A stretch of 14,059 nucleotides of DNA from Elusimicrobiota bacterium. Lineage in GTDB: Bacteria > Elusimicrobiota > Endomicrobiia > CG1-02-37-114 > JAHJSO01. The stretch covers positions 1-14,059 of the forward strand of contig JBDRQF010000012.1 in assembly GCA_043826435.1 (NCBI GenBank). The letters run 5' to 3'. Under the pieces are notes generated by a model. That model had not been told where the DNA came from and ran no database searches. It saw only the letters and a list, made by a program, of their open reading frames with translations. Shown in pieces: positions 3,001 through 14,059 of this stretch; position 1 is the stretch's first letter, and each line of letters starts with the position of its first letter. A program made the translations under genes and the position numbers.

Positions 3001-6000
3001 TGACAATTATTCAATAATTGAAATAGAGACACAGGACAGTTACGGTAACCCGAGACCTGTAAGCACCACAACTGTTATTAATTTAGGTAGTGTCTCAGGA
3101 GCAGTTGATTCTCTCAGGATTAATGACAAAGGTTTTCTGACGGATAATGCAAAAGATATTGATTCGGGTAACCCGACAACCGCTATAGGCAGAGGTTATT
3201 CATTCAGTGTCTCAACAACATGGGTGCATGTTGACACGGTCACCATCTCTGCACTCAATTATGCCACAACCTTTTATTATGCAGACACAAAGGCAAGCAA
3301 GATGTATCCGCCATATTATGACATTGCACTTTCAACAACCCCGACAATTACCACCTCTGGTGGCGGATGGAACGGGAGTCAGTACATTGCAATTATGCCG
3401 GCAGTTATAAGAAAAGCGGGTTTTGCCTCACTTCAACAGACACTTACAGCCGGCACAACCTCACAGGCATTTTTAATACAGACACATGACCTATTCTCAA
3501 ACCCATCTGCATTGCCAGCCGGATATGAGGACGTTTCTTTCACGCTCACATCCAACAGTCCCGGTACAACGGGTAAACCTGTTAAATTCGCATCTCCGTT
3601 TAGTACATCCACATGGACCGACCAACCGGGCACAGCAAAAATTGCAATCGGTTCTGACACCACAACCTTTTTCATGATTGATACAAAAGTCGGTGGGTGG
3701 CTGACTACAGTTGACCCGACTGGTTCAGGGACAGCCGAGTGGGTGGTTGCAGTCCAGACCTACACGGTAGTCCCTGCGATGGCTCACCATGTGTCATTTG
3801 TAACTCAGGAGAGAAAACTGATTGCCGGCACAACAGTCCAGTTCACAGGGACTGACCCGTTAGGCGCCTCAATCGGTACGACTACCGTTTCTGCATACAA
3901 CCCGTATGCGACCAGCCCCCTGCCAGTTACCCTTACGCTTTACGGCAACCGTCCCAGACAGAACACGGTTATGGAGGTGCAATTAAGGGATGAGTTTGAC
4001 AACATAACGACCTCAACCGACAATGTGAACCTGTCAATACAGGACACAACCACAAGGACAGGCAGGGGCGGGACTGACCCGGCAAAAGACCTTATGGATA
4101 CGTCATGGTCAAATATATGTGCGTCTGAGGGTGGCGCCTTAATCGGAATAATATCCCCCGGTACGACCTCGTATTCGTTTTATTATTACAATACGCTTGT
4201 AGGCACGCACACGATACGGGCGGCAGGGACAATGTTCGGCAAACCACTTTCTCCTACAACGCAGAATGTCTGTGTCACGGCTGCACCCGTCAGATACCTT
4301 ACACTGCACCATAAACACCCGGAGAGCAATCCTTTGCCGGTCCACCTGCCGGATTCAATTGACATTATCGCAAGAGACAGGTTCGGGAACGTTTCAACAG
4401 GCGATTCAACGAACGGCCAGTACTACACGGGCACGGTGAAGTTTGGTCACACAGGCGGCTCTACCACGGTTAGATTGAGAGCGATGCCTTCCGATACTAC
4501 GTATTACACGTTTGTTGGGGGTGACAGGGGTGTGTATAGGGGGTTGCAGATAGTTGACCAGACGTACGAGACAATAAAAATCTCTGCGACAAACTACGCC
4601 CTTGTGACTGTCCAGGCGCTGGACTATCCGCCCGTGGGCCAGATATACGGATACACGAACGACGGGAACAGGGAAGACATTGCTGCCGGATGCCCCCGTT
4701 CCGACGGCGATTTGGTCACAGCAGGCATTGTGGTTGACTCCGTTACTGACCCGAACACACTGTTGTCCAGGACACACTATGAAAGGCGGGGAAATATATA
4801 TCAGGGTGACGGGAACACCGCTACAGAATTCCCGCCATTTAACATGCTAAGACTTGATATGATGACAATGCCTTCAATCGTCAACCTTACTGCAAAGGTT
4901 GACCAGATACGGATTGACAGGGTTGGGACGTTGCCCGCCGGGGATATCACCGAAGTTGCCCTCCATTTTGATTCAAACGGGAACGGATATTTTGAGCCGG
5001 AACAGACAAAGGGAGGCGATCCGACTGATAGGAAATTGGTGGTTGCAGAATACGATGCAGGCGTTGACGCGTGGTATTTCAAAAACCTGGGGACAATGCC
5101 GGAGTGTGAAATAACGAATTCAGCCAGAAGATATTTTGTGGCTATAAGGGTTTCCACAATGTCTGAAACAAACAGGAATTTTGGTTTCCGGCTTGCAAAC
5201 TATCAATATATTTCAAGTTCAGGGAGCGTAGGCGTGGCTGCAAACAATTTTGAAATAAGGACAAGCACGTGGCCCGTCCTGAAGGCGCCGGCAAAGGTTT
5301 CTGCAGAGGTTGTTGATATAGCGGCATTCTACCAGTTGACAGGGACAACAGAAACAAAGAGGTATCCTTATGCGTATCAGGGCGAGATAAACGTGGGGAT
5401 GTTAAGAATCGGGTTTCGGACGAATGAATTTACGGCGGGACTGCAGAAGATAACCGTCGGGAGGACCGGTTCAGGCACTGACGATGATTTGGTCGGTATG
5501 AAAATCTTTATGGACGGTGCGGACACAAATAAAGACGGCAAGATTGATGGCGGTTCTTCAGCAAACGGGATTTTTGAATCAGGACTGGATATGCCGCTTA
5601 CTGACTGGATAAGTTTCAAAACGGCGACCGGCAATGCTACCGGGACGCTTTCAACCGTCCAGATTATTGAACCGACTACCCGTTATTTCTTTGTTGCCTA
5701 CGAGTTTCACAATTCCGCTATTCCGGGCAATACCCAGGGAGCAAAAATGAATAGTTTTGAGACCACAGAAGAGGAACTGCCATATGCCTTGGTTGAGTCC
5801 TCAAAGGTAGTTATATATGCCACGATTGATGAGACGGACCTCAGGGAATTCAACAAGAAAGAGCCGAATAATTTCAGTATCCCGTCAAACGCGACCCAGG
5901 GGGATAAAAACGTTGCGGTTATGCGTCTGACTCTCCTGACGCTTAAGAGGACGGCGCTCTGGAGTGGAATAAAACTGGACAGGACAATGAGCAGGGACGG

Positions 6001-9000
6001 CGTAACAGGTGAACTGAAAGGGGTAATGAATAAACCGACGGACATTGATGAAATCAAGGTGTGGTATGATGCCAACGGGGACGGCCTGTTGACCCCTACG
6101 GCAGACGGGTCGGTTGACCGTCGCATTGACCAGACGGGTGACGCTTACACCACCACAAAATTCCCGGCGTCAACCCTTGCTTCCAGCATAACCTCAACAG
6201 GTACTGTAATACCCGTAGGAAACATTGAAGTATTCTTCCCGTCAAACAGCAACCTGCCCTCCGTACCTGGACGGCTTGTCATAAATGACGGTTCTACGGA
6301 GCCGGCAAAGATTGAAATTGTCCGTTATTCCGGGGTTGATATGACAAATAAATTATTTACGGGCGTTGTGCGCGGCATAGACAGGTCAACGGCGCAGGCG
6401 CATGTCCCGGGGACAGTTGTTTCGGGTCAGGCCCGTCTGAACATTATTGGCGACGTTCAAGGGTTGCAGGAAATTAAAACAACTGCGAAGGATTACTTTA
6501 TCACGTTTAATGTGAACCCTCTGGCCGTGGTAGGCGAGACAAAATTGGGGCTTGAGATTGCTTCAACCGGATACTTCGGCATTGTCTCTCCTGACTTTTT
6601 CGGGAACAACTCAGGGAATGTTGGGCTTATAACCCCGCGCGGGTCGGGAAAGAGCCAGGCATCCATTGATAAGATAATGGAATATGCGGACGTGGTCACG
6701 TGCAAGGGGTATGACGTGCCTGATTCAACCACAGAAGATTTTGTCCAGAACAGCACGGACAATGCTGTGTATAAATTCACCCTTGAGACAAACCAGTCAG
6801 ACGCAAAATTTTATGGTTTACGGGTCTATAGCACAGGGACTGCAACCAGTGACGGCCTTGTAACCGACGAGGTCTCGGTTGTCAGAGTATGGTATGATGC
6901 AAACGGCAACGGAGATTTTGACAGAAACTATGATTTGTTTATTGCTTCCGCGATGTTTAACAATACAGGGCTGCCGCTGATGTCGTACATAAAATTTCCA
7001 GGGGATAAAGTCCGGACAATAGGGACCACCCCTTCCGAGTTCTTTATTACCTATGACATAAAACCCGAGGCACTCCCCATAGACCCTGATACAAACCAGC
7101 CAAGAACATTAGGGGCATATCTGACTGCGGAGAGTTTCCCGCTGGGGACAGACGGAATTTCTTCACCAAACACTGTGAACACCGCAGTATTCCCGCTGAT
7201 TAGCAAACAAAGAAAAATTGTTGCGAGCCCGAGGACGGTGTACGTCAAATCAGCCCCGGTATTCTCCGATGAGATGGGGAGCGGCAATTATTTGAGTTAT
7301 GAATCCCCGCGGTTAAACGGCGGCATCGGCGCGGGTGATACGACAATTTCGGTCTATTCAAATGACAACCAGTCCAACCCGATATTATACTTCCCGACAT
7401 CCGGATACATTCTCATTGACTCGGAGATTATGAGTTACACGGACAAAACCGCACTCACACTTACGGGCGTGCAGAGAGGTATATTAAACAGCGACGCAGC
7501 AAGCCATTCAAGCGGGACCATAGTAGGGTTGCAGTTGATTCAGGGGGCAAAGAACCAGCCGGTTATAAAACTGGAAATGTGGTGCGACGGCTTCCAGGTT
7601 GAGTGGAGTTCAATTAAAATCAGGAAACCCCTCGTAGGCACGTTGAATAGCGAGGATACGGACATATCCTGGGTAAAGATATACAGGGATGGCGGCGGTG
7701 AAAAGGGCCGTTTTGACCGGCGATCAGACGGGACAGTAACCGATAAAGAGGTGTTCCTCGGCAGTTCAACGGTCGGAGCAGGCGGTGAGCAAAACACAGT
7801 AACAATTGCATTAAATGACCCTGGTATAAACAGGAATTACGAGTTAATTAAAACAACGCCCAACGTGTATTTTGTTGTCATTGACGTTAACCCTGCTGCA
7901 AAATTCTGTCACCCGCAGATTGACAACGTGAACGAGGTCACGAATCTTGTTGTAGAAGACAACACGAGAATAATCATTAACAAACCCAGCAAGGATTTGT
8001 CTCACATCGTTTCAACCTACGTGCCTGTGGGAGAGCCCCCTTACCCGCCGGCATTCCCGATTAATGCCCCGAACTCCCCGATTCTTGCGACGGTTGATAC
8101 AATGTGGGTTACACCAAGCAAGGAAGCCCCCAACGACGCAGCACAGAATCAAAAGAACGTTAGGATGGCGAAACTTACGATAAAGGCAAACAACAATACT
8201 GCCATATGGCAGAAAATAAAGGTTGATTTGATAGGCAGCGGGGTTGACGGGGACGTGGAAAACGTAAAGGTCTGGAGAAAGACATCGTCGACAGAACCAT
8301 GGGTTTATACGTCAACGATAACGATATCAAATGAGTTTTACGGGCTCGTTACCCAGGGCACTGACAGGTTTGCAGACAAGACGGTCACCGTTTCAATTAA
8401 GCCATTTAAGCACAAGGAAGACGGTAAGGAGTATCCGCATACAGTTTCAACCGATGATAGCATCTATATGATTACTTACGATTTAAGCCAGTATGCGGGG
8501 ATTGGCAGGGAAGTTGGTTGCAGAATATCCGATATTTCTTACTTTACGGTCCAGGTGCCTGACATCGTCGGTCTAAACTGGTCGCCACTGCCGTTTGAAA
8601 CGGGACTTACAAAAATAAAAGAGGCAAAAAGTATTGTGAGTATCAAGATGCTGGACTCTGCAAAGTATGTTGTAACCACATACCAGGCGCAACAGAGGGT
8701 GCCCATAATGCGTCTGAAACTTTATACCGATGTGGCTGACGCGAAATTGGACGCGATACAGGTTGAGCGGTTGGGTGGCTCCGTGCTGGAACAGGGGACA
8801 AAACCCGAAGGGAGGAATTCGGACGTAAAATACGTAAAGATATACAAGGACAGCAACGGCTCAAAAGAATTGGAGGCGACTGACGATGTGATATCAGAGG
8901 CTGAAACAAAAATAAGCAGTTTCATAGTAGGCGGTAGTTATTACAATTATTTAAGCGACCAGGTAACTGCCCCGTTCGGTATTATCGTCCAGGCGACCTC

Positions 9001-11647
9001 AACCGCCGCCGGAATCTTCCCGACGGGGAAAACGCAACTCTTAATTAAAATAGGCGACGAAATTATGTCTTATGACATTGCAGGGACAACCCAGACGCCG
9101 ACAGGTCCCCGTCCTTACTTGAACATAAAAGAGAGGGGTAAATATAATACACCAAAATCGGTACATAACACAGGGGCTTCACTGCGTAAAGTGGATATGT
9201 TTAACTTAACCGATGACCGGGATAAACTAAAACTCATTGTACTCACATTCCCGCAGGCATTGATTCCGACCGAGCAGACATACTTTATCGGCTATGACAT
9301 AGGGGACAATGCCATTGCACAGAATTCATTGGGAGTAAAAATTCCAAATGCCGGCTCAATTGAAGTGCAGCCCCAGGACAAGAAGGAGGTCTCTCCCACC
9401 ATTTTCCTTGAAGATACCAATGAATACGCGGGGTTTGACAAATGCAGGTCATCTCTCATCCAGATTAACCCCGTGAACCTGAACGTCCGTAGTGACAACC
9501 TTGTTACCGGTTCTGCACAGCAGACCACAAAGGACGTGCCGTTGATGCGACTGCGTCTCTGGACGGACAGGAATTATATTACAATAAAACAGATAAATCT
9601 TACACAAATCGGCAGCGTTAAAATTACAGACCCCGCAGGCAACGCAGTCGGTGATTTCTCAAAACTGAGTATCTGGTTGGATGCCCCCACGGCTGCGCTA
9701 CCGTCAGGCAACGGGGCATTCAGTTCTACGGAAGACATACTCATAGGTAGTGCAACGAACAGGGTGGTGCTTGAGGACAACTCCATAATTGACTACACGT
9801 TTGCTTACCAGGGAGTGCCTGTCCCGGGCAGCGGCGGCAAGGGCCTTTTTGTTTCAACCCGGGTTGTGAATATATTTATTACCGCTGATATCGGCGTTCG
9901 TGACCTGGCAAAACAAAACACAGAGGGAGATAAAGCAGGCATAAAACTGAACGGTTTCAGCGACGTTATTATCACCCCTGAAACAGCCGGCTCGGCAGGA
10001 GACAATTCATTCCCGTACAGTTCAGGGGAACTTACAATACTGAGCCAGTATGCGATTGTAGCCCAGCCGTATTCCGTAATCCCCGTAGTGTGGGCGGACC
10101 CGTTCGTAGACGGGTATCCTGCAGTTGATACTAACGGCGACGGCAAGCCGGACAGGGTAATGGTTGACGACGAGGTGTTTATTGACGTCAACGGCGATGG
10201 GGTAAACGATTTGAAAGACCTGAATGGCGACGGCAGGAAAAATGAGATTGACCTGGACGGAGACGGCTTGCACGACATAGACATCAACAGTGACGGATTC
10301 CTGGACATAGACATAAACTATGACGGCTATATAGACCTTATATTGCCTGACAGCAACGGCGACGGCCTCCCGGATATTGACCTTTTTGCAAACGGAACCA
10401 TAGACAATGTAATCCCCGGAAGATGGACGAACAGCCGTCTGAAGACATACGCAAAGTGGGTCTCAACTGCAAACGTACAGAGTTACTATATTGCAGTCGG
10501 CAAAGGACCTGACGACATCAGTGTTTCGGGTCTGTGGTTTGACAATGAAAACAATACCGAGATAACGATGAGCGGGCTTTCACTTGAGGAATTGAAATGG
10601 ACAAAGACCACAGAGAAGAGGATTCTTGAGACCGAAGACCCGAACCCACCGATGAACGAGTACGTGAAACTATATGTTGAGAGTTTTGAGGGTTTTAATA
10701 CACAGGCACAGGGGTATATATATGTCGGTTCAGGCAAGGATGCGGAAATTATGCACTATATATCTGCAGGAACTGAGGAAAAAACGATAGGTACTACAAA
10801 AACCTGGGCTTATTTCTTTAACATTGACGAGAGGAAGTGTTTCGGCACGAATAAGAAAACGCACGAAATCGGCACGGTTGTTTCAAACGCCGTGTATTAC
10901 AAGCGGCTGAAAGCAACAAGCAACCAGGGGGTTGAAGGTCCTGCTGTTCTCATGGCGACGTACAGGGTTGACGTGAATAAACCGTCCGAGCCGTCTTCAC
11001 TGAAGGGCGAGGCGGTTAAGACGAGCGCCGTGCTGGACGAATACCTTATAAAGGTTGAGTGGGACAAATCAGCCGATGACCTGTCAGGCGTGCGTATATA
11101 CGAAATCCAGGAGAGCAAAGACACCGACCCGAGGTGGAACAAGGTTGCAACGTTGCCTTCAAACAAACTCAATATGTCCCGCAGGCAGACGGGAGGCAAT
11201 TACTACTATTACCGGCTCCGTTCACAGGACTGCTCAGGCAACTGGAGCGCATGGTCTGAGATTGTCAGGGTGCAAGTTAAACTGCCCGCTGAAATAATCT
11301 CCGAGGTCTCAAACTATCCCAACCCGCTTAACCTCACAAAACCGGGCGTGAAGCAGGAGACGTACATTACTTATACCCTGAACCAGGACATAGAGGTAAT
11401 CATTACGCTCTATGACCTGCTCGGATACAAGGTCTATGAGTGGAAGTGCCCTGCAGGAGAAAAACACTCGGGGACAGGGAAACCGTTCGTTGATGGGAAG
11501 GGCAAGGGCGGGGCTGCGGGCGTTAACGTTGTGGTCTGGGATGTCAGGAATGAAATCGGAGATACCGTAAGTAAGGGCGGCTATATAGCCCATATAAAGG
11601 TTGGGACGATTGCAACAACGACCCGCAAAATAGGAATTATAAGGTAA
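2..11647 (+). CDS. Giant repetitive surface/secreted protein (adhesin-like) with C-terminal T9SS-type/FlgD-Ig sorting domain; 5'-truncated by the window edge
   Basis: Uninterrupted ORF of 3870 aa from ATG35. The same frame is open from base 2 (NLAVEPSTTVF-M) and no signal peptide follows M1, so the true start is probably upstream of the window. The protein is T/S/G/V/D-rich with beta-sandwich-like repeats, DxDxDG loops, FN3 motifs and a YPNP-type C-terminal domain. Stop TAA 11645-11647. Confidence 0.93.
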   Translation, partial: NLAVEPSTTVFMTGGVATIATARVRSAGNQTITASDNDGVSPSLDSHTSSVVSVKSATAAKLQVLALGEVAVQGKPPWTQSPLGGKADGNPPSSQMAGSFVTVTVNVCDRYWNVTSSKEYVRVQSNDVNAQSPDVNGVNDPYDLWVTSSEVISNKIKLVTADTGRYVKAEDLNPGVDPNLEWNRSQDIEVYAGSPNKLLVTMPWETRSPGSKLGKIKTGESVTTAGTLLTVEVALCDSYFNVVSNVGITVQCTTPNDPYDVEPSLGSTPGSGPALTSFSWTSGLKRAATYHYVFADTADYRYYPYETYDFVASTFTVRPTTADRLQVVLPGESASWGLETNKGKTGTPLTQIAGTTFYISVNVCDRYYNRYDRNLFPLLDPLAGDSVQTDVDTSDLYDPEPAVSSLIDPLFTQIFPINLRTAATTHIISARDVDANEPHSSSDTTKQFKVIAAAPTQLFVVVPGETAVDGKNTSPVGRIGTPQQWIAGDSFNVTVLLTDDYYNRVFSSSWVRVTTWDPIDSEDANYGPLQLSAGQQQFYVTPKTASSSWTVTSVDASTAPTYASRNSSNVRVWPAPAHFIRFESGWDPVTISTYATAGSGYNVRANVYDQYRNLCSTGPNRYTGQVTFDAETFANTVQNPTPLPGSAESYYTYTSTDAGSHVFSITLRKSGSRWIKWSDTANSAISTEVSGYSTRPYIDVKPGPTQKIAFTEPASSVDPKYVEAGTLATPGKQWIRAFLSDQYENPVPQANVPVLIDVIDVSGSTGTVRDSAGNVVTSTTTDSNGEIGATGRELYYHISTKGGDFAKIKLSTGTNSTISGASVKVMTTGGQTAKFAFVSVPAEIEAGAKSSVITIEKRDDFNNPTGKNDMYIGLYSDSPSTAKKFWHQTTDTVITQVFIPGWTDSTLAWPVPSTYSRASFRYSDPYSSWPVGEDGSPNTATAGLTARPSSGKWTLTTQWTETVKGTATVTVNPGAIARLGFDIYPTTSVPLKAGMNIDKFDNYSIIEIETQDSYGNPRPVSTTTVINLGSVSGAVDSLRINDKGFLTDNAKDIDSGNPTTAIGRGYSFSVSTTWVHVDTVTISALNYATTFYYADTKASKMYPPYYDIALSTTPTITTSGGGWNGSQYIAIMPAVIRKAGFASLQQTLTAGTTSQAFLIQTHDLFSNPSALPAGYEDVSFTLTSNSPGTTGKPVKFASPFSTSTWTDQPGTAKIAIGSDTTTFFMIDTKVGGWLTTVDPTGSGTAEWVVAVQTYTVVPAMAHHVSFVTQERKLIAGTTVQFTGTDPLGASIGTTTVSAYNPYATSPLPVTLTLYGNRPRQNTVMEVQLRDEFDNITTSTDNVNLSIQDTTTRTGRGGTDPAKDLMDTSWSNICASEGGALIGIISPGTTSYSFYYYNTLVGTHTIRAAGTMFGKPLSPTTQNVCVTAAPVRYLTLHHKHPESNPLPVHLPDSIDIIARDRFGNVSTGDSTNGQYYTGTVKFGHTGGSTTVRLRAMPSDTTYYTFVGGDRGVYRGLQIVDQTYETIKISATNYALVTVQALDYPPVGQIYGYTNDGNREDIAAGCPRSDGDLVTAGIVVDSVTDPNTLLSRTHYERRGNIYQGDGNTATEFPPFNMLRLDMMTMPSIVNLTAKVDQIRIDRVGTLPAGDITEVALHFDSNGNGYFEPEQTKGGDPTDRKLVVAEYDAGVDAWYFKNLGTMPECEITNSARRYFVAIRVSTMSETNRNFGFRLANYQYISSSGSVGVAANNFEIRTSTWPVLKAPAKVSAEVVDIAAFYQLTGTTETKRYPYAYQGEINVGMLRIGFRTNEFTAGLQKITVGRTGSGTDDDLVGMKIFMDGADTNKDGKIDGGSSANGIFESGLDMPLTDWISFKTATGNATGTLSTVQIIEPTTRYFFVAYEFHNSAIPGNTQGAKMNSFETTEEELPYALVESSKVVIYATIDETDLREFNKKEPNNFSIPSNATQGDKNVAVMRLTLLTLKRTALWSGIKLDRTMSRDGVTGELKGVMNKPTDIDEIKVWYDANGDGLLTPTADGSVDRRIDQTGDAYTTTKFPASTLASSITSTGTVIPVGNIEVFFPSNSNLPSVPGRLVINDGSTEPAKIEIVRYSGVDMTNKLFTGVVRGIDRSTAQAHVPGTVVSGQARLNIIGDVQGLQEIKTTAKDYFITFNVNPLAVVGETKLGLEIASTGYFGIVSPDFFGNNSGNVGLITPRGSGKSQASIDKIMEYADVVTCKGYDVPDSTTEDFVQNSTDNAVYKFTLETNQSDAKFYGLRVYSTGTATSDGLVTDEVSVVRVWYDANGNGDFDRNYDLFIASAMFNNTGLPLMSYIKFPGDKVRTIGTTPSEFFITYDIKPEALPIDPDTNQPRTLGAYLTAESFPLGTDGISSPNTVNTAVFPLISKQRKIVASPRTVYVKSAPVFSDEMGSGNYLSYESPRLNGGIGAGDTTISVYSNDNQSNPILYFPTSGYILIDSEIMSYTDKTALTLTGVQRGILNSDAASHSSGTIVGLQLIQGAKNQPVIKLEMWCDGFQVEWSSIKIRKPLVGTLNSEDTDISWVKIYRDGGGEKGRFDRRSDGTVTDKEVFLGSSTVGAGGEQNTVTIALNDPGINRNYELIKTTPNVYFVVIDVNPAAKFCHPQIDNVNEVTNLVVEDNTRIIINKPSKDLSHIVSTYVPVGEPPYPPAFPINAPNSPILATVDTMWVTPSKEAPNDAAQNQKNVRMAKLTIKANNNTAIWQKIKVDLIGSGVDGDVENVKVWRKTSSTEPWVYTSTITISNEFYGLVTQGTDRFADKTVTVSIKPFKHKEDGKEYPHTVSTDDSIYMITYDLSQYAGIGREVGCRISDISYFTVQVPDIVGLNWSPLPFETGLTKIKEAKSIVSIKMLDSAKYVVTTYQAQQRVPIMRLKLYTDVADAKLDAIQVERLGGSVLEQGTKPEGRNSDVKYVKIYKDSNGSKELEATDDVISEAETKISSFIVGGSYYNYLSDQVTAPFGIIVQATSTAAGIFPTGKTQLLIKIGDEIMSYDIAGTTQTPTGPRPYLNIKERGKYNTPKSVHNTGASLRKVDMFNLTDDRDKLKLIVLTFPQALIPTEQTYFIGYDIGDNAIAQNSLGVKIPNAGSIEVQPQDKKEVSPTIFLEDTNEYAGFDKCRSSLIQINPVNLNVRSDNLVTGSAQQTTKDVPLMRLRLWTDRNYITIKQINLTQIGSVKITDPAGNAVGDFSKLSIWLDAPTAALPSGNGAFSSTEDILIGSATNRVVLEDNSIIDYTFAYQGVPVPGSGGKGLFVSTRVVNIFITADIGVRDLAKQNTEGDKAGIKLNGFSDVIITPETAGSAGDNSFPYSSGELTILSQYAIVAQPYSVIPVVWADPFVDGYPAVDTNGDGKPDRVMVDDEVFIDVNGDGVNDLKDLNGDGRKNEIDLDGDGLHDIDINSDGFLDIDINYDGYIDLILPDSNGDGLPDIDLFANGTIDNVIPGRWTNSRLKTYAKWVSTANVQSYYIAVGKGPDDISVSGLWFDNENNTEITMSGLSLEELKWTKTTEKRILETEDPNPPMNEYVKLYVESFEGFNTQAQGYIYVGSGKDAEIMHYISAGTEEKTIGTTKTWAYFFNIDERKCFGTNKKTHEIGTVVSNAVYYKRLKATSNQGVEGPAVLMATYRVDVNKPSEPSSLKGEAVKTSAVLDEYLIKVEWDKSADDLSGVRIYEIQESKDTDPRWNKVATLPSNKLNMSRRQTGGNYYYYRLRSQDCSGNWSAWSEIVRVQVKLPAEIISEVSNYPNPLNLTKPGVKQETYITYTLNQDIEVIITLYDLLGYKVYEWKCPAGEKHSGTGKPFVDGKGKGGAAGVNVVVWDVRNEIGDTVSKGGYIAHIKVGTIATTTRKIGIIR
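167..4600 (+). repeat. 11 tandem Ig-like (invasin/Big/filamin-like) protein repeats, ~110-167 aa period; boundaries approximate
   Basis: Recurring P/A-x3-[KR]-L-x-[VF]...AG...hxhxhx-D-x-[YF]-x-N. Motif D codons at 326 (DRYWN), 710 (DSYFN), 1094 (DRYYN), 1496 (DDYYN), 1826 (DQYRN), 2222 (DQYEN), 2576 (DDFNN), 3035 (DSYGN), 3488 (DLFSN), 3989 (DEFDN), 4376 (DRFGN). Confidence 0.8.
4799..10040 (+). repeat. 8 tandem ~175-200 aa beta-rich protein repeats (QG...hh[RK]L...DI..VK.W.DxNGxG...YFI.YD); end approximate
   Basis: Unit starts at 4799 (YQGDGN), 5375 (YQGEIN), 5894 (TQGDKN), 6743 (VQNSTDN), 7538 (IQGAKN), 8141 (AQNQKN), 8681 (YQAQQR), 9515 (AQQTTKD). Shared motifs include DIDEIKVWYDANGDG, EVSVVRVWYDANGNG, DVKYVKIYKDSNGS, and YFITFNV/FFITYDI/YFIGYDI. 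Confidence 0.8.
10127..10405 (+). repeat. Cluster of 8 DxDxDG-type putative Ca2+-binding loops
   Basis: DTNGDGKPD, DVNGDGVND, DLNGDGRKNE, DLDGDGLHD, DINSDGFLD, DINYDGYID, DSNGDGLPD, DLFANGTID. The central copies have a 10-aa period. Dx[DN]xDG is an established Ca-binding loop motif. Confidence 0.8.
10421..11260 (+). other. Two fibronectin type III-like domains; the first is interrupted by an inserted module
   Basis: Second domain (10970-11260): DVNKPSEPSSL...VEWDKSADDLSGVRIYEIQ...W...YYYRLRSQDCSGNWSAWS, a typical FN3 pattern. First domain: AKW...YYIAVG...W...GLSL [insert] YYKRLKATSNQG. Confidence 0.7.
11297..11647 (+). other. C-terminal T9SS type-A-like / FlgD-Ig-like sorting domain
   Basis: SNYPNP...TYITYTL...VIITLYDLLGYKV...GVNVVVWDVRNEIGDTVSKGGYIAHIKV...RKIGIIR*. 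This matches the YPNP, IYD..G..V, WDG.N..G..V..G.Y and terminal K-h-x-h-h pattern of Por secretion tails and FlgD-Ig CTDs. Confidence 0.8.
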
Positions 11648-11662
11648 GATTTCAGTGCCCCA

Positions 11663-11721
11663 TGTCATTGCGAGGGACGAAGTCCCGAAGCAATCTCGTC
11701 GGCATAATTCAGGTTAATGAC
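11663..11721. repeat. GTCATTGCGAG...GAAGCAATCT-type palindromic (REP/RPE-like) element, apparently a half copy
   Basis: Hairpin ATTGC(11667-71)-GA-GGGAC-GAA-GTCCC-GAA-GCAAT(11690-94). Outer GTCATT(11664-69) is complementary to AATGAC(11716-21). It starts 16 bp after the stop codon and has no adjacent U-tract. The family resemblance is from recall. Confidence 0.65.
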
Positions 11722-11750
11722 TTGTAAACAAAAAATTTTTCAGAAAACCC

Positions 11751-11779
11751 TTGACAAATTTACAAAAACCGTTTATAAT
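11751..11779 (+). promoter_or_regulatory. Consensus sigma70 promoter (TTGACA-N17-TATAAT) with upstream A/T tracts
   Basis: TTGACA 11751-11756 and TATAAT 11774-11779 with a 17-bp spacer. A/T tracts at about 11726-11747 are UP-element-like. Predicted TSS is about 11786, upstream of the riboswitch. Confidence 0.9.
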
Positions 11780-11865
11780 AATACTGGAAAGGATAGGGGG
11801 CTATCCAGACCGAATTAATCCAAGCGTAGTAAAAAGCGTTATAGTTCTTTAAAATGTTCTTAATC

Positions 11866-11963
11866 ATACTGCGAAAAGGCAAACCCTGTTGAAAACAGGG
11901 GGCGCAAAACCAACGGGCCTAAGTTGGAATAGCCAATACGGTGGCCGGGTTGCCGAACAGTAT
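11866..11963 (+). promoter_or_regulatory. c-di-GMP-I (GEMM) riboswitch aptamer
   Basis: GGCAAACC-CTGT-TGAAA-ACAGGG-GGCGCAAA (P2 with GAAA-containing loop). P3 has an 11-nt-type tetraloop receptor CCTAAG(11918-23)/TACGG(11937-41), an inner TTGG/CCAA stem and a 3' GGTTGCCGA. Closing ATACTG(11866-71)/CAGTAT(11958-63). Equivalents of Vc2 G20, A47 and C92 are at 11878, 11906 and 11953. Confidence 0.93.
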
Positions 11964-12010
11964 AGTATTTTTTTTCGGCAAACAATGTAACAAAGTTGTA
12001 AACGTTATAT

Positions 12011-12048
12011 CCCGAAGCCACCAAAAATAAGGTGATTCGGGTTTTTTT
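12011..12048 (+). terminator. Intrinsic terminator forming the riboswitch expression platform
   Basis: CCCGAA-gc-CACC-loop(AAAAATAA)-GGTG-a-TTCGGG followed by T7 (12042-12048), immediately before ATG 12052. Confidence 0.85.
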
Positions 12049-12051
12049 ATT

Positions 12052-13701
12052 ATGAAAACAATAAAAAACAAAAATTATGGTGCATCCGATTATGGTGGAT
12101 CCGGAGAAAGCACTTTAAACAGTGCAAATGCCATGGTTTATATATTTGCCCTCATTTTGACCCTTCTTGTATCACCCACCTTCAGCCCCCTATTTTCAAA
12201 AGCAACCGGCGGACAGCCGGGACAATTCCTGCAGTGGGCCGCCGGGGCCCGCTCGTTAGGAATGGGTAAGGCCTTTTATGGCGTCTCAGATGATGCAAGC
12301 GCAACTTACTGGAACCCGGCAGGACTTATCCAGTTGGACAGGAATGAGATCGTCGCCCTGCACACAAACCTCTGGGCAGGGACATCATACGATTTCATTT
12401 CTTTTGTTTATCCTACGGCTAGATTGGGCGTTTTTGGAGCGAATATCACCAAGTTAAGAACGGATGGTTTTGAAAAGGTTGAATTTTCCTACAACGAGAC
12501 GACCCAGGAAATTACCTTTAACCCCGGTGGGACGTTCAGCGACGACCAGATGGCTCTGACGCTCGCCTATGGCAGGAAGGTTATGAGAAACATTTCAATC
12601 GGCTTAGCCACGAAACTCCTCCAGAGGACGCTGGACGTTCATACGGACAACATGATAACCTTTGACATAAATTTACTCCAGCAGGGGTTAAACTCACACC
12701 TGCCCGGATTAAAATTGGGTTTCGGGATAAACAACATCTTAACGCAGAGTTTTAACACACAGGACGTTCTACCGATGACATTCAGGTTTGGAGCCGCCCA
12801 CAGGTTCTTACGGGATAAGTTGACGATGGCGTTTGACCTTACAAAAGGGATGAAATCAAACATTAACTGGGCCATCGGCGCCGAATACTGGATGATGAAC
12901 TTTATGGCAATGCGGCTTGGTTTTGACGGTGAAGATGCAATAAGGGAATCAAGCATGGGGCTGGGTTTTAAGTACAGGGATTACGGCTTTGACTATGCCT
13001 TTGCAATGCATGCGATGGGCATATCGGCGTTCAGGTTGAGCGGTTCCTACAAGTTCGGCGCATCGGTAGTCGCTGCCAGGGACTCAACCATCAGACGTAT
13101 AATACATGAAGGGATAGAGGCGTACAGGCGCGGGAATTTTCTCGTTGCATTCAGCCGGCTGGAAAAGGCGTTTGCAGTTGACCCTGCAAACCAGGACGTC
13201 CAGAAGATGACCAGAAAACTCCAGACGATTATTTCCTACATCACGTCTGCTCAGAAGGATACGGAAGAGGAAGGAGGGATACGCAAGGGCGTGGCCGCCT
13301 ATATGGACGACGACATCCCCGGAGCCGTCAGCGCCTTTAAGTACGCCTACTACAAGAACCCGCAGAATGCAAAGGTATTCCAATTGTTGAATGCCCTTGA
13401 GAGAGGGAATAACCTGCCCCTTACCGAGTCCTACAAGGAAGACATTGTTGGTTTTACGATTATTGACAAAAAGATATACGACGCAAGGCAACTGGTTATT
13501 GAGGGCAAATACGACCAGTCCCTCCTGAGGTGCCAGGAAGTCCTGAACCTTGAGCCGAACAACGTAACCGCCCTTGAGATTATGGGCAGCGCCTTCTTTA
13601 TGATGAACCAGAGAGACAAGGCAAAAGAGGTATGGATTAAGGTACTTGAACTTGACCCGACAAGGGAGATGGTCAGGGAGTTTCTTGAGGAGTTAAAATA
13701 A
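12052..13701 (+). CDS. PorV/PorQ-family (FadL-like) outer-membrane beta-barrel protein with C-terminal TPR repeats
   Basis: Hydrophobic signal segment (VYIFALILTLLVS), then the family N-terminal motif GARSLGMGKAF..VSDDASATYWNPAGL (12244-12327). Amphipathic beta-strands end in FRLSGSYKF (13056). TPR-like helices follow (EGIEAYRRGNF...AFAVDPAN; CQEVLNLEPNNVTALEIMGSAF...WIKVLELDP). Start is uncertain (12052 vs 12133). Confidence 0.88.
   Translation: MKTIKNKNYGASDYGGSGESTLNSANAMVYIFALILTLLVSPTFSPLFSKATGGQPGQFLQWAAGARSLGMGKAFYGVSDDASATYWNPAGLIQLDRNEIVALHTNLWAGTSYDFISFVYPTARLGVFGANITKLRTDGFEKVEFSYNETTQEITFNPGGTFSDDQMALTLAYGRKVMRNISIGLATKLLQRTLDVHTDNMITFDINLLQQGLNSHLPGLKLGFGINNILTQSFNTQDVLPMTFRFGAAHRFLRDKLTMAFDLTKGMKSNINWAIGAEYWMMNFMAMRLGFDGEDAIRESSMGLGFKYRDYGFDYAFAMHAMGISAFRLSGSYKFGASVVAARDSTIRRIIHEGIEAYRRGNFLVAFSRLEKAFAVDPANQDVQKMTRKLQTIISYITSAQKDTEEEGGIRKGVAAYMDDDIPGAVSAFKYAYYKNPQNAKVFQLLNALERGNNLPLTESYKEDIVGFTIIDKKIYDARQLVIEGKYDQSLLRCQEVLNLEPNNVTALEIMGSAFFMMNQRDKAKEVWIKVLELDPTREMVREFLEELK
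12074..12103 (+). repeat. 15-bp tandem duplication, in frame
   Basis: ATTATGGTGCATCCG (12074-12088) and ATTATGGTGGATCCG (12089-12103), 14/15 identical, encoding NYGAS/DYGGS. Confidence 0.8.
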
Positions 13702-13713
13702 TTCAAAAAACCC

Positions 13714-13742
13714 TTGAAAAAAATGGGAAAGTATATTATAAG
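13714..13742 (+). promoter_or_regulatory. Putative sigma70-like promoter (TTGAAA-N17-TATAAG)
   Basis: TTGAAA 13714-13719 and TATAAG 13737-13742, each 5/6 to consensus, with a 17-bp spacer. The context is near-identical to the promoter at 11751. The conserved final T of the -10 is missing. Confidence 0.5.
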
Positions 13743-13775
13743 GTATTTTAAGGTAAGGGAAGGAGAAGGCGGCAA

Positions 13776-14059
13776 ATGAAAAGCGGAATAACGTTAAAAC
13801 CTGTGATTGTTTTGCTTGTTTCCATGGCATGCTTTATCTGCCTCCTGCCGGATAGCCGGGCGCAGGAAGAGCAGCCAAAGGATATATCCATATTGTTACT
13901 GGAACAGGAGAGGAAGTATGAAAAGGAACAGGCGGAGTACGTCCAGAAGAACATACTTGACAAGATTCTCGGTGAGGGCAAATCATCGGTGGTAGTGGAC
14001 GTTGAGTTTGAACTGCGCACCACGAAAACGCTCCAGCAGGCGAAGGAATCAAAGGCAGA
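13776..14059 (+). CDS. Signal-peptide protein with FliF C-terminal/SpoIIIAG-like ring-building motif; 3'-truncated and absent from the ORF track
   Basis: SD AGGAG at 13761-13765, ATG 13776, open to the window end: MKSGITLKPVIVLLVSMACFICLLPDSRA-QEEQPKDISILLLEQERKYEKEQAEYVQKNILDKILGEGKSSVVVDVEFELRTTKTLQQAKESKA. The CDS itself is well supported; the RBM assignment is by motif resemblance only. Confidence 0.8.
   Translation, partial: MKSGITLKPVIVLLVSMACFICLLPDSRAQEEQPKDISILLLEQERKYEKEQAEYVQKNILDKILGEGKSSVVVDVEFELRTTKTLQQAKESKA

What the first reader, a model, noticed from the sequence alone, without database searches (positions are those of the whole stretch)
11297..14059. Candidate non-canonical T9SS-like export locus: giant CTD cargo, PorV-TPR fusion and FliF/SpoIIIAG-like ring protein under c-di-GMP control
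Seen: a giant protein ending in a YPNP-type CTD is followed directly by a riboswitch-led PorV/PorQ-like barrel and then an exported protein with an RBM-like motif. Established: in Bacteroidota PorV shuttles type-A CTD cargo, the rings and motor are PorK/N and PorL/M, and FliF/SpoIIIAG RBMs form rings in flagella/T3SS and the sporulation channel. Inference: this may be a hybrid system that uses a T9SS-like sorting signal and barrel with a flagellar-type ring in a lineage outside Bacteroidota (Elusimicrobiota is a guess). Only three genes are visible, so the functional link is unproven.
Basis: partly seen in the sequence, partly recalled or inferred. Interest (0 to 1): 0.85.

Follow-up and report, generated by a model that had tools for sequence, protein, structure and literature searches.

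The report
Flagellum-free rotor operon with PorV-like barrel
An uncultured Elusimicrobiota bacterium with no flagellum encodes, behind a c-di-GMP riboswitch, an outer-membrane PorV-like barrel and a fused FliF-FliG rotor protein next to a giant surface protein, which points to an undescribed envelope motor built from flagellar and type-IX-secretion parts.

Summary
A 3881-aa (5'-open) protein ends in a T9SS-type C-terminal domain. A perfect sigma-70 promoter and a c-di-GMP-I aptamer (71.7 bits) follow it. The next gene is a PorV/PorQ-family barrel with a TPR tail. The last ORF is the first 94 aa of an exported protein.

That last ORF is identical to the start of a 604-aa database protein with this architecture: signal peptide, FliF RBM3/collar domain, TM helix, FliG middle and C domains, TPR. 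The order CTD protein, PorV-TPR, FliF-FliG holds in 11 of 11 relatives. The barrel precedes the fusion in 60 of 73 testable Elusimicrobiota loci, and the aptamer precedes the operon in 59 of 80.

The genome shows no FlhA, FliM/N, flagellin, GldL, GldM or GldN, and no PorU catalytic part. It does hold a distant SprA-like protein, 27 CTD proteins (22 followed by their own barrel) and three MotAB sets. The unlinked MotA groups with MotAs encoded inside this operon type in other classes.

Best reading: a c-di-GMP-controlled, non-flagellar rotor-stator machine tied to T9SS-like cargo and barrel modules. Its function (surface movement or export) is inferred. This scan met the same machine before, on other contigs of this genome and in at least eight other genomes. 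In print I found only a passing note of orphan motAB/fliG.

The parts
2..11647 (+). Giant (at least 3881 aa, 5' end off the contig) repetitive adhesin-like surface protein
   Evidence: ORF, translation. No Pfam or NCBIfam family for the whole protein or for its pieces above cut-off. It is 47.5% identical over 3241 aa to the giant encoded upstream of the same operon in genome G002.
11297..11647 (+). T9SS-type C-terminal sorting domain (CTD) of the giant protein, through the stop codon
   Evidence: A genome-specific CTD HMM built without this sequence gives domain E 3.3e-14 at residues 3766-3868. Motifs align with 29 CTDs. Model pLDDT 85.7; best PDB matches are PorZ 5m11 (8.9e-5) and PorU 6za2 (1.4e-4). 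Curated models are below cut-off and Pfam gives none.
11662..11697 (+). Copy of a genome-wide hairpin repeat just after the giant gene's stop codon
   Evidence: 34 places in the genome match the window stretch holding it. 24 copies have at most 5 substitutions, with compensatory stem changes.
11751..11779 (+). Sigma-70-type promoter, TTGACA-17-TATAAT
   Evidence: 12 of 12 consensus positions. It lies 89 nt upstream of the aptamer.
11868..11957 (+). c-di-GMP-I riboswitch aptamer
   Evidence: RF01051, 71.7 bits against gathering 35, full-length match. It is the only copy in the genome. Homologous aptamers lie upstream of the same operon in 6 of 11 relatives and in 59 of 80 phylum-wide loci.
12011..12048 (+). 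Terminator-like hairpin plus a run of 7 U, ending 3 nt before the ATG; its 5' arm can pair instead with the 3' half of the aptamer (11940-11957)
   Evidence: Sequence. The hairpin folds at -14.7 kcal/mol. A transcript ending at 12022 folds into the antiterminator (-50.0), and the full leader folds into aptamer plus terminator (-53.0). The simple terminator scan did not list it.
12052..13701 (+). PorV/PorQ-family outer-membrane barrel (residues 58-325, bases 12223-13026) fused to a helical/TPR C-terminal domain (residues about 340-549, bases 13069-13698)
   Evidence: NF033709 134.8 bits against cut-off 90. TPR_2 and TPR_19 are over cut-off. 413 homologues were found, and those listed with names are named Elusimicrobia/Endomicrobia, apart from one named only 'bacterium'. 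The true start may be Met28.
13776..14059 (+). First 94 codons of the FliF(RBM3)-TM-FliG(M,C)-TPR fusion gene: signal peptide and start of the RBM3 domain; cut by the contig end
   Evidence: 100% identical to residues 1-94 of the 604-aa P0132. P0132 matches T. maritima FliG 1lkv at E 2.4e-40 and TIGR00207 at 141.8 bits. Ortholog Pfam scores: FliG_C 93-101 bits, FliG_M 42-57 bits. RBM3 fold. No terminator was found between this gene and the barrel gene.

Best explanation
The window holds the front end of an Elusimicrobiota operon for a flagellum-independent rotor-stator machine that is joined to T9SS-like surface-protein modules.

Shown:
- A sigma-70 promoter and a c-di-GMP-I aptamer lead a PorV/PorQ-type outer-membrane barrel with a periplasmic TPR tail.
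- The next gene encodes a single protein that fuses a signal peptide, one FliF-type RBM3/collar ring domain, a membrane helix, the FliG middle and C-terminal (torque) domains, and a TPR tail.
- A CTD-bearing protein, here a giant adhesin-like one, sits directly upstream.

Inferred:
- The fusion forms an inner-membrane ring with a periplasmic collar and a cytoplasmic FliG ring.
- The ring is turned by flagellar-type MotA/MotB units. In this genome these are encoded elsewhere (contig C29), and in other classes they are inside the same operon.
- The invariant LPGIPxPK loop at the collar tip, or another part of the ring, contacts the periplasmic TPR domain of the barrel.
- The barrel in turn holds the CTD of a surface protein.
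- Long cytoplasmic coiled-coil/TPR proteins encoded next in the operon scaffold the ring.
- The output is movement or handling of outer-membrane-anchored giant adhesins. This would be a functional analogue of the GldLM/SprB gliding apparatus, built from different parts.
- Leader folding suggests that c-di-GMP binding favours the terminator, that is, an OFF switch, about 60% likely.
For: Parts: see the observation check.

Fusion family: an alignment of 102 sequences has invariant Gly-Gly linker, NMS, Phe and Asp columns, and a nearly invariant LPGIPxP motif at P108, G109, P111 and P113.

Synteny:
- CTD ORF, PorV-TPR, then fusion in 11 of 11 relatives chosen by barrel similarity.
- A barrel lies directly upstream of the fusion in 60 of 73 testable loci among 80 public Elusimicrobiota loci.
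- A CTD ORF precedes that barrel in 31 of 56 testable loci.
- MotA/MotB lie in the same locus in 48 of 80.

Paralogous cassettes:
- Own contig C38 encodes a giant CTD protein, PorV-TPR, the fusion, MotA, MotB and MotB. Own contig C33 encodes the fusion, MotA, MotB and MotB.
- MotA-MotB is adjacent in 15 of 18 such loci.

Stator:
- The own MotAs and MotBs match flagellar PomA/MotA/MotP and MotB/MotD/MotS models best, over their full length.
- C29 MotB keeps the channel Asp.
- C29 MotA groups (aLRT 100) with 45 MotAs encoded inside this operon type. Mean identity is 54%, against 37% to the other type.

Not a flagellum:
- FHIPEP is found in 0 of 41 relatives and 6 of 301 phylum genomes.
- FliG_C is found in 16 of 41 and 106 of 301, so 100 of the 106 FliG_C-positive genomes lack FlhA.
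- FliMN_C and Flagellin_N give 0 matches in the own genome.
- All 16 FliG_C-positive genomes of the 41 have MotB_plug.

Regulation:
- The aptamer is found in 59 of 80 loci, all on the operon strand and, where I compared coordinates (a few loci), just upstream of the barrel gene.
- The genome has 4 GGDEF proteins.

T9SS-like side:
- 22 of 27 CTD ORFs are followed by their own barrel gene.
- 25 of 27 CTD tails hit Por_Secre_tail, CHU_C or FlgD_ig.
- An SprA-like ORF is present in 38 of 41 genomes.

Not decay: the non-flagellar FliG domains (37 sequences) form one clade (support 0.999) apart from 42 canonical FliGs, 6 of them from flagellated Elusimicrobiota.
Against: - Only 94 codons of the fusion gene lie in the window. 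The rest rests on P0132 and orthologs. The remainder of the gene and the 1600-aa coiled-coil gene are not in this assembly.
- In this class no MotA/MotB lies within the 20-kb fetched stretch around the operon (about 10 kb downstream of the barrel gene; 0 of 11 relatives), so the stator assignment is by phylogeny only.
- The torque helix has Gly where T. maritima FliG has Arg in 94 of 101 family members. The EHPQR-type motif is degenerate (KEPAS). Any MotA contact is therefore not the canonical one.
- The giant gene lies upstream of the promoter and aptamer. CTD-then-barrel adjacency is a genome-wide rule (22 of 27), so the giant's tie to the rotor is indirect. In 9 of 11 relatives the upstream CTD protein has only 122-177 aa.
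- The PorV equivalog cut-off is not met (55.7 against 250), and SprA is below its cut-off.
- The GldL, GldM and GldN searches had silent controls.
- No expression, imaging or binding data exist.
- The ON/OFF call rests on thermodynamic folding alone.
Confidence: 0.55

Rival explanations
1. The rotor-stator module powers secretion and attachment of CTD proteins rather than their movement. It would replace the PorLM/GldLM motor of the Bacteroidota T9SS and feed energy to the SprA-like translocon and the cargo-specific barrels.
For: GldL, GldM and GldN were not found in the own genome. An SprA-like ORF, 27 CTD proteins and 29 barrels are present. The fusion is operon-linked to barrels and CTD proteins. 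In Bacteroidota the same motor serves both secretion and gliding (recalled; the paper title was seen in a reference list).
Against: The largest family sampled among the relatives (f6, 20 genomes) has SprA-like matches in 18 of 20 genomes, barrel matches in 19 of 20 and CTD matches in 16 of 20. It has FliG_C in 0 of 20 and MotB_plug in 1 of 20. CTD export in this phylum therefore does not generally need the rotor.
Confidence: 0.2
2. The fusion is a static envelope-spanning scaffold or signalling platform. The FliG-like and TPR domains and the coiled coils would organise a fixed anchoring site for giant adhesins, without rotation.
For: This operon type in this class has no adjacent stator genes (0 of 11 relatives). 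The conserved torque-helix Arg is replaced by Gly in 94 of 101 members, and the FliM-binding motif is degenerate. Two very long coiled-coil proteins and three TPR tails suggest scaffolding.
Against: In other classes the same operon type carries MotA and MotB (48 of 80 loci), and the orthologous MotAB is kept in this genome. The acidic pair of the torque helix, the Gly-Gly hinge and the Phe-x-Phe hinge are conserved. All 16 FliG_C-positive genomes keep MotB_plug proteins.
Confidence: 0.15
3. The genes are decaying leftovers of a lost flagellum, and their position beside T9SS-like genes is chance.
For: A few Elusimicrobiota (6 of 301 sampled) do have FlhA and canonical FliG, so flagella exist in the phylum.
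Against: The frames are intact, the motifs are invariant and there are several paralogous cassettes per genome. The gene order and the riboswitch are conserved across the phylum. The fusion FliG domains form one clade apart from the phylum's own canonical FliGs.
Confidence: 0.03

Closest known systems
Core of the bacterial flagellar motor: FliF MS-ring (RBM3/collar), FliG, and the MotA5B2/PomAB stator
   Same: RBM3/collar fold: 18 of 18 significant PDB hits are FliF. FliG middle and C domains are over the Pfam cut-offs in orthologs, and P0132 matches T. maritima FliG at E 2.4e-40. Flagellar-type MotA and MotB with plug and OmpA domains are present.
   Different: FliF and FliG are one polypeptide. 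There is only one RBM and no FliG N domain. The FliM-binding motif is degenerate, and the torque-helix Arg is Gly. There is an extra TPR tail. No FlhA, FliM/N or flagellin is found in the genome. The partners are a PorV-like barrel, CTD proteins and giant coiled coils.
Bacteroidota type IX secretion and gliding apparatus (SprA/Sov, PorV, PorLM/GldLM motor, PorKN ring, PorU sortase; SprB adhesin with its SprF/PorP partner)
   Same: There are CTD sorting domains, PorV/PorQ- and PorP/SprF-family barrels, and a distant SprA-like protein. A cargo gene is followed by its own barrel gene, as for type B CTD proteins and PorP-like proteins (title and abstract of PMC9143113 seen in the listing; own counts). 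An ion-driven motor is genetically tied to giant surface adhesins.
   Different: GldL, GldM and GldN gave 0 matches. GldK gave only generic FGE-sulfatase hits, and PorU matched only in its CTD part. The motor candidate is MotAB plus FliG, not GldLM. The barrel carries a TPR tail. The phylum is outside the Bacteroidota.
c-di-GMP-I riboswitches that lead motility or adhesion operons (for example the one ahead of the Clostridioides difficile flagellar operon; recalled, not checked here)
   Same: A full-length c-di-GMP-I aptamer is followed by a terminator-type expression platform ahead of an operon with flagellar-motor homologues.
   Different: The operon is non-flagellar. Several relatives have the aptamer in tandem. 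Ligand binding and the direction of the switch are untested.
SpoIIIAG and PrgK/EscJ ring proteins (the other RBM families)
   Different: The matches are much weaker than those to FliF: PrgK model 2y9j_Y at E 0.013 and SpoIIIAG 5wc3 at E 0.041.

Membership tests
c-di-GMP-I riboswitch (Rfam RF01051) | Score at or above the gathering score over the full covariance model | tested here: met
   71.7 bits against 35, model positions 1-87 of 87.
c-di-GMP-I riboswitch (Rfam RF01051) | Binds c-di-GMP and switches gene expression | not testable with these tools
   Only folding was done: a terminator and a competing antiterminator are predicted.
PorV/PorQ family (NCBIfam NF033709) | Whole-protein score over the curated cut-off | tested here: met
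   134.8 bits against 90.
PorV proper (NF033710) or PorQ proper (NF033711) | Equivalog cut-off | tested here: not met
   PorV 55.7 against 250, PorQ 37 against 220, PorV2 84.7 against 325.
T9SS type A CTD (TIGR04183 / PF18962) | Curated cut-off | tested here: not met
   14 bits against 23, E 0.037. No Pfam hit at E <= 0.01.
T9SS CTD superfamily (Por_Secre_tail / CHU_C / FlgD_ig type) | Homology to domains that pass those models, position at the extreme C-terminus, and a beta-sandwich fold | tested here: met
   An HMM of 7 own-genome CTDs gives E 3.3e-14 at residues 3766-3868 of 3881. 25 of 27 such tails hit the Pfam CTD families, 15 of them over cut-off. The model's best PDB hits are PorZ and PorU, but the fold is common and Fn3-like domains follow closely.
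Canonical T9SS | SprA/Sov translocon | tested here: inconclusive
   One 1739-aa ORF scores 124.5 bits with TIGR04189, E 2.5e-36, below the cut-off of 200. It has no Pfam hit. A like ORF is present in 38 of 41 relatives.
Canonical T9SS | PorL/GldL-PorM/GldM motor and PorK/GldK-PorN/GldN ring | tested here: not met
   GldL, GldM and GldN give 0 matches in the own genome, but the control genomes were silent too. GldK gives at best 62.6 bits against 350, on generic FGE-sulfatase proteins.
Canonical T9SS | PorU sortase | tested here: not met
   In the 150 matches listed (120 more were not shown), only positions about 880-1094 of the 1095-position model match, that is, its C-terminal end including its own CTD. 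No match is over the cut-off in 41 genomes.
Flagellar FliF (MS-ring protein) | RBM3 plus collar fold | tested here: met
   Ortholog model pLDDT 80.4. 18 of 18 PDB hits at E <= 1e-3 are FliF RBM3/S-ring. The paralog on C38 scores 26 bits against 23.8 with PF08345.
Flagellar FliF (MS-ring protein) | RBM1 and RBM2 domains, two TM helices, and a C-terminal FliG-binding tail | tested here: not met
   The periplasmic part is about 165 aa with one alpha-beta-(insert)-beta-alpha-beta unit. The N-terminus looks like a cleavable signal peptide. FliG is fused directly.
Flagellar FliG (TIGR00207; Pfam FliG_N/M/C) | FliG_M and FliG_C domains | tested here: met
   Orthologs score FliG_C 93.2 and 101 bits (cut-off 23.3) and FliG_M 57 and 42.3 bits (cut-off 25). 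P0132 matches 1lkv at E 2.4e-40.
Flagellar FliG (TIGR00207; Pfam FliG_N/M/C) | Equivalog cut-off, N domain, EHPQR motif and torque-helix Arg | tested here: not met
   141.8 bits against 226.7, covering positions 106-329 of 338 only. The motif reads KEPAS. Gly replaces the Arg in 94 of 101 members. Which residues matter in E. coli FliG is recalled.
Flagellum as a system | Export gate FlhA, C-ring FliM/N and flagellin | tested here: not met
   FHIPEP is found in 0 of 41 genomes including the own one. FliMN_C and Flagellin_N give 0 matches in the own genome, with controls ringing in 4 of 14.

The most novel reading that the evidence does not exclude
This is a third kind of ion-driven envelope rotor. 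A MotAB-turned FliF/FliG ring has no export apparatus, rod or filament. Its collar tip (the invariant LPGIPxPK loop) docks the periplasmic TPR domain of a PorV-like barrel, which carries the CTD of giant adhesins. Torque would thus be delivered to the outer membrane or cell surface, giving a new form of gliding or surface-protein transport that is shut off by c-di-GMP. The fusion FliG domains form one deep clade outside all canonical FliGs sampled, including those of flagellated Elusimicrobiota. The machine may therefore descend from a rotor that predates, or split very early from, the flagellum proper. That would make the order of events in flagellar origins testable.
Probability: 0.25. Interest if true: 0.95.

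Novelty: categorically new. Interest (0 to 1): 0.82.

Why it matters
Only a few ion-driven rotary envelope machines are known: the flagellum, Tol and Ton, Agl-Glt, GldLM and Zorya. A machine that keeps just the torque core of the flagellum (FliF ring, FliG, MotAB) and couples it to T9SS-type barrels and giant adhesins would be a new member of that list. It would explain why most free-living Elusimicrobiota carry 'orphan' motAB and fliG genes. It would give a natural minimal rotor for structural work. It would also bear on how the flagellar motor arose. The phylum-wide c-di-GMP riboswitch gives a direct experimental handle.

Tried and rejected
- Complex prediction, with the RBM3 domain and the barrel's TPR tail as chains, was not available. 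No binding test was made.
- The search for related loci with the single barrel protein found nothing.
- Pfam and NCBIfam on the giant protein, whole and in pieces, gave nothing above cut-off.
- The rest of the fusion gene and the 1600-aa coiled-coil gene were sought in the own assembly. Only paralogs at 27-32% identity turned up.
- A 915-aa 5'-cut ORF at the start of contig C39 is 39.6% identical to the second coiled-coil protein of G002. The genes after it are collinear with G002's. C39 is therefore probably, but not provably, the continuation of this operon.
- The simple terminator scan missed the leader hairpin. It was found by folding.
- Reading the third ORF as SpoIIIAG-like was rejected in favour of FliF (E 0.041 against 2.9e-6).
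- Reading the barrel as the general PorV shuttle was rejected. The equivalog cut-off is not met, and the genome has 29 barrels, 22 of them paired with their own cargo gene.
- Nine literature searches found no description of the machine. The terms were: Elusimicrobia+FliG; Elusimicrobia+type IX secretion; FliG+non-flagellated+MotA+homolog; PorV+outside Bacteroidetes; FliF-FliG fusion or MotAB; FliG+PorV; Elusimicrobiota+MotA+flagell; T9SS+Elusimicrobiota; c-di-GMP riboswitch+Elusimicrobia.
- Sequencing-run and read-laying tools were not used.

Full report
WHAT IS IN THE WINDOW

The window is a whole 14,059-base contig (C12) of a 1.83-Mb, 61-contig genome rated 96.7% complete. It has three co-directional reading frames:
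- 2..11647, 3881 aa, 5' end off the contig;
- 12052..13701, 549 aa;
- 13776..14057, 94 aa, cut by the contig end.

Between the first two frames lie four features:
- a 36-base hairpin repeat at 11662-11697;
- a promoter matching TTGACA-17-TATAAT in 12 of 12 positions at 11751-11779;
- a full-length c-di-GMP-I aptamer at 11868-11957, 71.7 bits against gathering 35;
- a hairpin plus U7 at 12011-12048 that ends 3 nt before the start codon.

The aptamer is the only one in the genome. The genome has four GGDEF proteins.

THE THREE PROTEINS

Giant protein. It has no Pfam or NCBIfam family above cut-off. Its last roughly 115 residues are a T9SS-type CTD.
- Curated models are only grazed: TIGR04183 at 14 bits against 23, and the C-terminal end of the PorU model at E 6.6e-4.
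- An HMM made from seven other CTDs of this genome finds residues 3766-3868 at E 3.3e-14.
- The YPNP, W-D/N, GxY and terminal IIR motifs align with 29 other tails.
- The AlphaFold model (pLDDT 85.7, seven strands) has P. gingivalis PorZ and PorU as best PDB matches. Only 6 hits reach E <= 1e-3, and Fn3-like domains follow closely, so the fold alone is weak evidence.

Second protein. It passes the PorV/PorQ family model (134.8 bits against 90). It does not pass the PorV, PorQ or PorV2 equivalogs. It carries a helical/TPR tail.

Third frame. It is identical over all 94 residues to the 604-aa database protein P0132.
- P0132 and its orthologs read: signal peptide, a periplasmic domain of about 165 aa, a TM helix, a Gly/Glu-rich linker, FliG_M, FliG_C, TPR.
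- P0132 aligns with T. maritima FliG (1lkv) at E 2.4e-40.
- It scores 141.8 bits with TIGR00207, below the equivalog cut-off of 226.7, and covers only positions 106-329 of 338.

- The model has pLDDT 80.4 and the topology alpha-beta-(insert)-beta-alpha-beta followed by a TM helix.
- All 18 PDB matches at E <= 1e-3 are FliF RBM3/S-ring/collar structures.
- The PrgK model follows at E 0.013 and SpoIIIAG at 0.041.

ORGANISM

The listed homologues of the barrel and of the fusion that carry organism names are called Elusimicrobia, Elusimicrobiota, Endomicrobia or Endomicrobiales, apart from one 'bacterium' and one Omnitrophica label. Of the 80 best public loci for the fusion, 76 carry such titles, three say only 'bacterium' and one says Ignavibacteria.

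IS IT A FLAGELLUM OR A T9SS?

Flagellum tests:
- FHIPEP (FlhA) was found in 0 of 41 related genomes including the own one.
- In the phylum sample FHIPEP was found in 6 of 301 genomes.
- FliG_C was found in 16 of 41 and in 106 of 301.
- So 100 of the 106 FliG_C-positive genomes lack FlhA. The six with FlhA hold canonical-size FliG.
- FliMN_C and Flagellin_N gave nothing in the own genome, with working controls.

T9SS tests:
- GldL, GldM and GldN gave nothing, but their control genomes were silent.
- GldK gave only sub-cut-off hits on generic FGE-sulfatase proteins.
- The PorU model matched only in its C-terminal end, which includes its own CTD, in the matches listed.
- One 1739-aa ORF beside lptF/lptG is a distant SprA relative: 124.5 bits, E 2.5e-36, cut-off 200, no Pfam hit. 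A like ORF is present in 38 of 41 relatives.
- The same search route therefore does pick up faint T9SS homologues.

The locus is a member of neither system.

GENOME-WIDE CARGO-BARREL RULE

My CTD and barrel HMMs find 27 ORFs with a C-terminal CTD and 29 PorV-like ORFs in the genome. Of the 27 CTD ORFs, 22 are followed on the same strand, within -25 to +478 bases, by a barrel gene. One of the other five ends at a contig edge. Of the 27 tails, 25 hit Por_Secre_tail, CHU_C or FlgD_ig at E <= 0.01, and 15 are over a Pfam cut-off. The window's giant is one of the two that hit none. So 'giant CTD protein followed by barrel' is the local rule, not a special feature of this locus. It recalls type B CTD proteins and their PorP-like partners in Bacteroidota (PMC9143113; title and start of abstract seen in the listing).

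SYNTENY OF THE TRIO

In 11 of 11 relatives picked by barrel similarity the order is CTD ORF, PorV-TPR, fusion.
- A 1600-aa coiled-coil/TPR protein and a second coiled-coil protein of 810-1244 aa follow in the five relatives whose downstream DNA I fetched.
- The CTD ORF is giant only in G002, where it is 47.5% identical to the window's giant over 3241 aa. It has 1660 aa in G033. In the other nine it has only 122-177 aa and lies between the riboswitch and the barrel.
- None of the 11 loci has MotA/MotB in its 20-kb fetched stretch, which reaches about 10 kb downstream of the barrel gene.

In the 80 public loci, some of which are the same DNA as those 11:
- a barrel gene lies directly upstream of the fusion in 60 of 73 loci with enough upstream DNA;
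- a CTD ORF precedes that barrel in 31 of 56;
- MotA and/or MotB lie downstream in the same locus in 48 of 80.

THE STATOR

The own genome has two paralogous cassettes:
- C38: giant CTD protein, PorV-TPR, fusion, MotA, MotB, MotB. This fusion copy scores 26 bits against 23.8 with YscJ_FliF_C.
- C33: fusion, MotA, MotB, MotB.

It also has an unlinked MotA-MotB pair on C29.
- All MotAs match flagellar PomA/MotA/MotP models over their full length.
- C29 MotB and the first MotB of each tandem pair keep the channel Asp. The second MotB of each pair has Asn.
- Among 18 cassettes of the second kind, MotA-MotB is adjacent in 15 (one divergently oriented), PorV-TPR lies directly upstream in 7, and a giant CTD ORF lies before that in 6.
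- In a quick maximum-likelihood tree of 61 MotAs, C29 MotA groups (aLRT 100) with the 45 MotAs encoded inside fusion-TPR operons of other classes. Mean identity is 54%, against 37% to the other type. The C38 and C33 MotAs group with the second kind.
- All 16 FliG_C-positive genomes of the 41 have MotB_plug, against 5 of the 25 others. These genomes are kin, so this is not a statistical test.

I infer that C29 MotAB is the cognate stator of the window's rotor.

REGULATION

Rfam finds c-di-GMP-I or c-di-GMP-I-GGC aptamers ahead of the operon in 6 of 11 relatives, and three of those have them in tandem. A covariance model built from six of these aptamers reproduces that 6 of 11. It finds an aptamer on the operon strand in 59 of the 80 public loci. 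Four of those loci gave scores identical to the training sequences; without them the count is 55 of 76. I did not tabulate aptamer positions against the barrel gene; in the few loci where I compared coordinates the aptamer lies just upstream of it.

In the window, the 3' half of the aptamer can pair with the 5' arm of the terminator.
- A transcript ending at 12022 folds into that antiterminator (-50.0 kcal/mol).
- The full leader folds into aptamer plus terminator (-53.0).
- Ligand binding should therefore favour termination, that is, an OFF switch. This is inferred from folding only.
- No terminator was found between the barrel gene and the fusion gene.

FINE STRUCTURE OF THE FUSION

Across 101 family members the Gly-Gly hinge, the Phe-x-Phe hinge region, the NMS motif and an acidic pair on the torque helix are kept. 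The position of the T. maritima torque-helix Arg is Gly in 94 of 101. The EHPQR-type motif reads KEPAS in P0132. Which of these residues matter in E. coli is recalled. An LPGIPxP(K) loop in the insert between the first two RBM strands is nearly invariant. It lies in the low-confidence collar tip of the model. I propose it as the contact for a periplasmic partner such as the barrel's TPR tail. The complex predictor was not available, so this is untested.

ORIGIN

In a FastTree of the FliG M-C region (79 sequences, 216 columns) all 37 non-flagellar Elusimicrobiota sequences form one clade (support 0.999). The 36 canonical FliGs of other phyla and the 6 from flagellated Elusimicrobiota mix with each other on the other side of the midpoint root. 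The fusions are thus not recent offshoots of the phylum's own flagellar FliG. Without an outgroup, 'older than the flagellum' and 'fast-evolving early offshoot' cannot be told apart. The canonical sample is also biased towards relatives of one query.

PROBABLE CONTINUATION

Contig C39 starts inside an ORF that is 39.6% identical to G002's second coiled-coil protein. It then encodes, in order:
- a 1330-aa CHU_C-type CTD protein;
- a 478-aa barrel (PorP_SprF 34.4 bits against 22.3) with a LysM end;
- two ORFs of about 410 aa;
- a 1644-aa fn3/Ig/CHU_C protein;
- a second barrel with LysM;
- a histidine-kinase ATPase protein;
- a TPR protein.

This order is collinear with G002.

WHAT IS KNOWN

- A 2022 preprint (10.1101/2022.07.08.499144; passages read) states that most free-living Elusimicrobiota lack flagellar structural genes yet hold numerous motAB, flbD and fliG homologues of unclear role. 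It does not describe the fusion, the barrel link, the CTD proteins or the riboswitch.
- A 2025 study of MotAB evolution (PMC12505986; passages read) does not mention Elusimicrobia.
- The other searches listed under Tried and rejected found nothing.
- Within this scan the same machine was reported before, on other contigs of this genome and in at least eight other genomes. I re-tested the main claims independently here.

VERDICT

The identity of the parts is secure. That they form one rotary, envelope-spanning machine acting on CTD-anchored surface proteins is the best-supported inference (about 0.55). A secretion-energising role (0.2) and a static scaffold (0.15) are live rivals.

Noticed in passing
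window 11662-11697: A hairpin repeat (stem GGGAC/GTCCC inside ATTGC/GCAAT) sits right after the giant gene's stop codon. The genome has 24 copies with at most 5 substitutions. Many of them carry the compensatory GGGGC/GCCCC stem.
   Followed up: partly
G000 genome-wide (for example C41:2-835 then 835-2256; C30:24870-28718 then 22881-24392): 22 of 27 CTD-bearing ORFs are followed directly by their own PorV/PorQ/PorP-like barrel gene. 3 of the 7 unpaired barrels lie at contig ends.
   Followed up: yes
G000:C36:35005-40224 (-): A 1739-aa distant SprA/Sov-like ORF (TIGR04189 124.5 bits, below cut-off 200) lies next to lptF/lptG. A like ORF is present in 38 of 41 related genomes, including families that lack FliG.
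   Followed up: partly
G000:C38:47096-48447 and C33:1-1287: The MotB genes come in tandem pairs. The first copy keeps the channel Asp and the second has Asn. The unlinked C29 MotB keeps Asp.
   Followed up: partly
L022:9640-10029, L023:9619-10095, L025:9584-10045 and six more relatives: Tiny proteins (122-177 aa) that consist of little more than a signal peptide and a CTD lie between the riboswitch and the PorV-TPR gene. The window and G002 lack them.
   Followed up: partly
L022:10212-10589, L023:9160-9611, L024:10037-10466: There are tandem pairs of c-di-GMP-I-type aptamers ahead of the operon in three relatives. Several aptamers fit the GGC variant model (RF03167) best.
   Followed up: no
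window 13489-13698; P0132 residues 520-604; P0124 residues 1529-1597: The barrel, the fusion and the 1600-aa coiled-coil protein all end in a similar one- to two-repeat TPR tail, although the first should be periplasmic and the other two cytoplasmic.
   Followed up: no
G000:C3:4630-8198 and C30:6706-8638: There are clusters of short (263-417 aa) FGE-sulfatase-domain proteins that hit the GldK model weakly (up to 62.6 bits against 350). They are probably generic, but a PorK-like role is not excluded.
   Followed up: no
L077:9536-10576 (G039:C15) and L089:3026-4483: Two FliG-like genes of the non-flagellar clade stand alone without MotAB or a barrel. One has only 346 aa, so it has canonical FliG size but sits in the fusion clade.
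   Followed up: no
L102: One of the 80 public records that hold the operon is titled Ignavibacteria, while all its neighbours in similarity are titled Elusimicrobia/Endomicrobia. The label is probably a binning or naming error.
   Followed up: no
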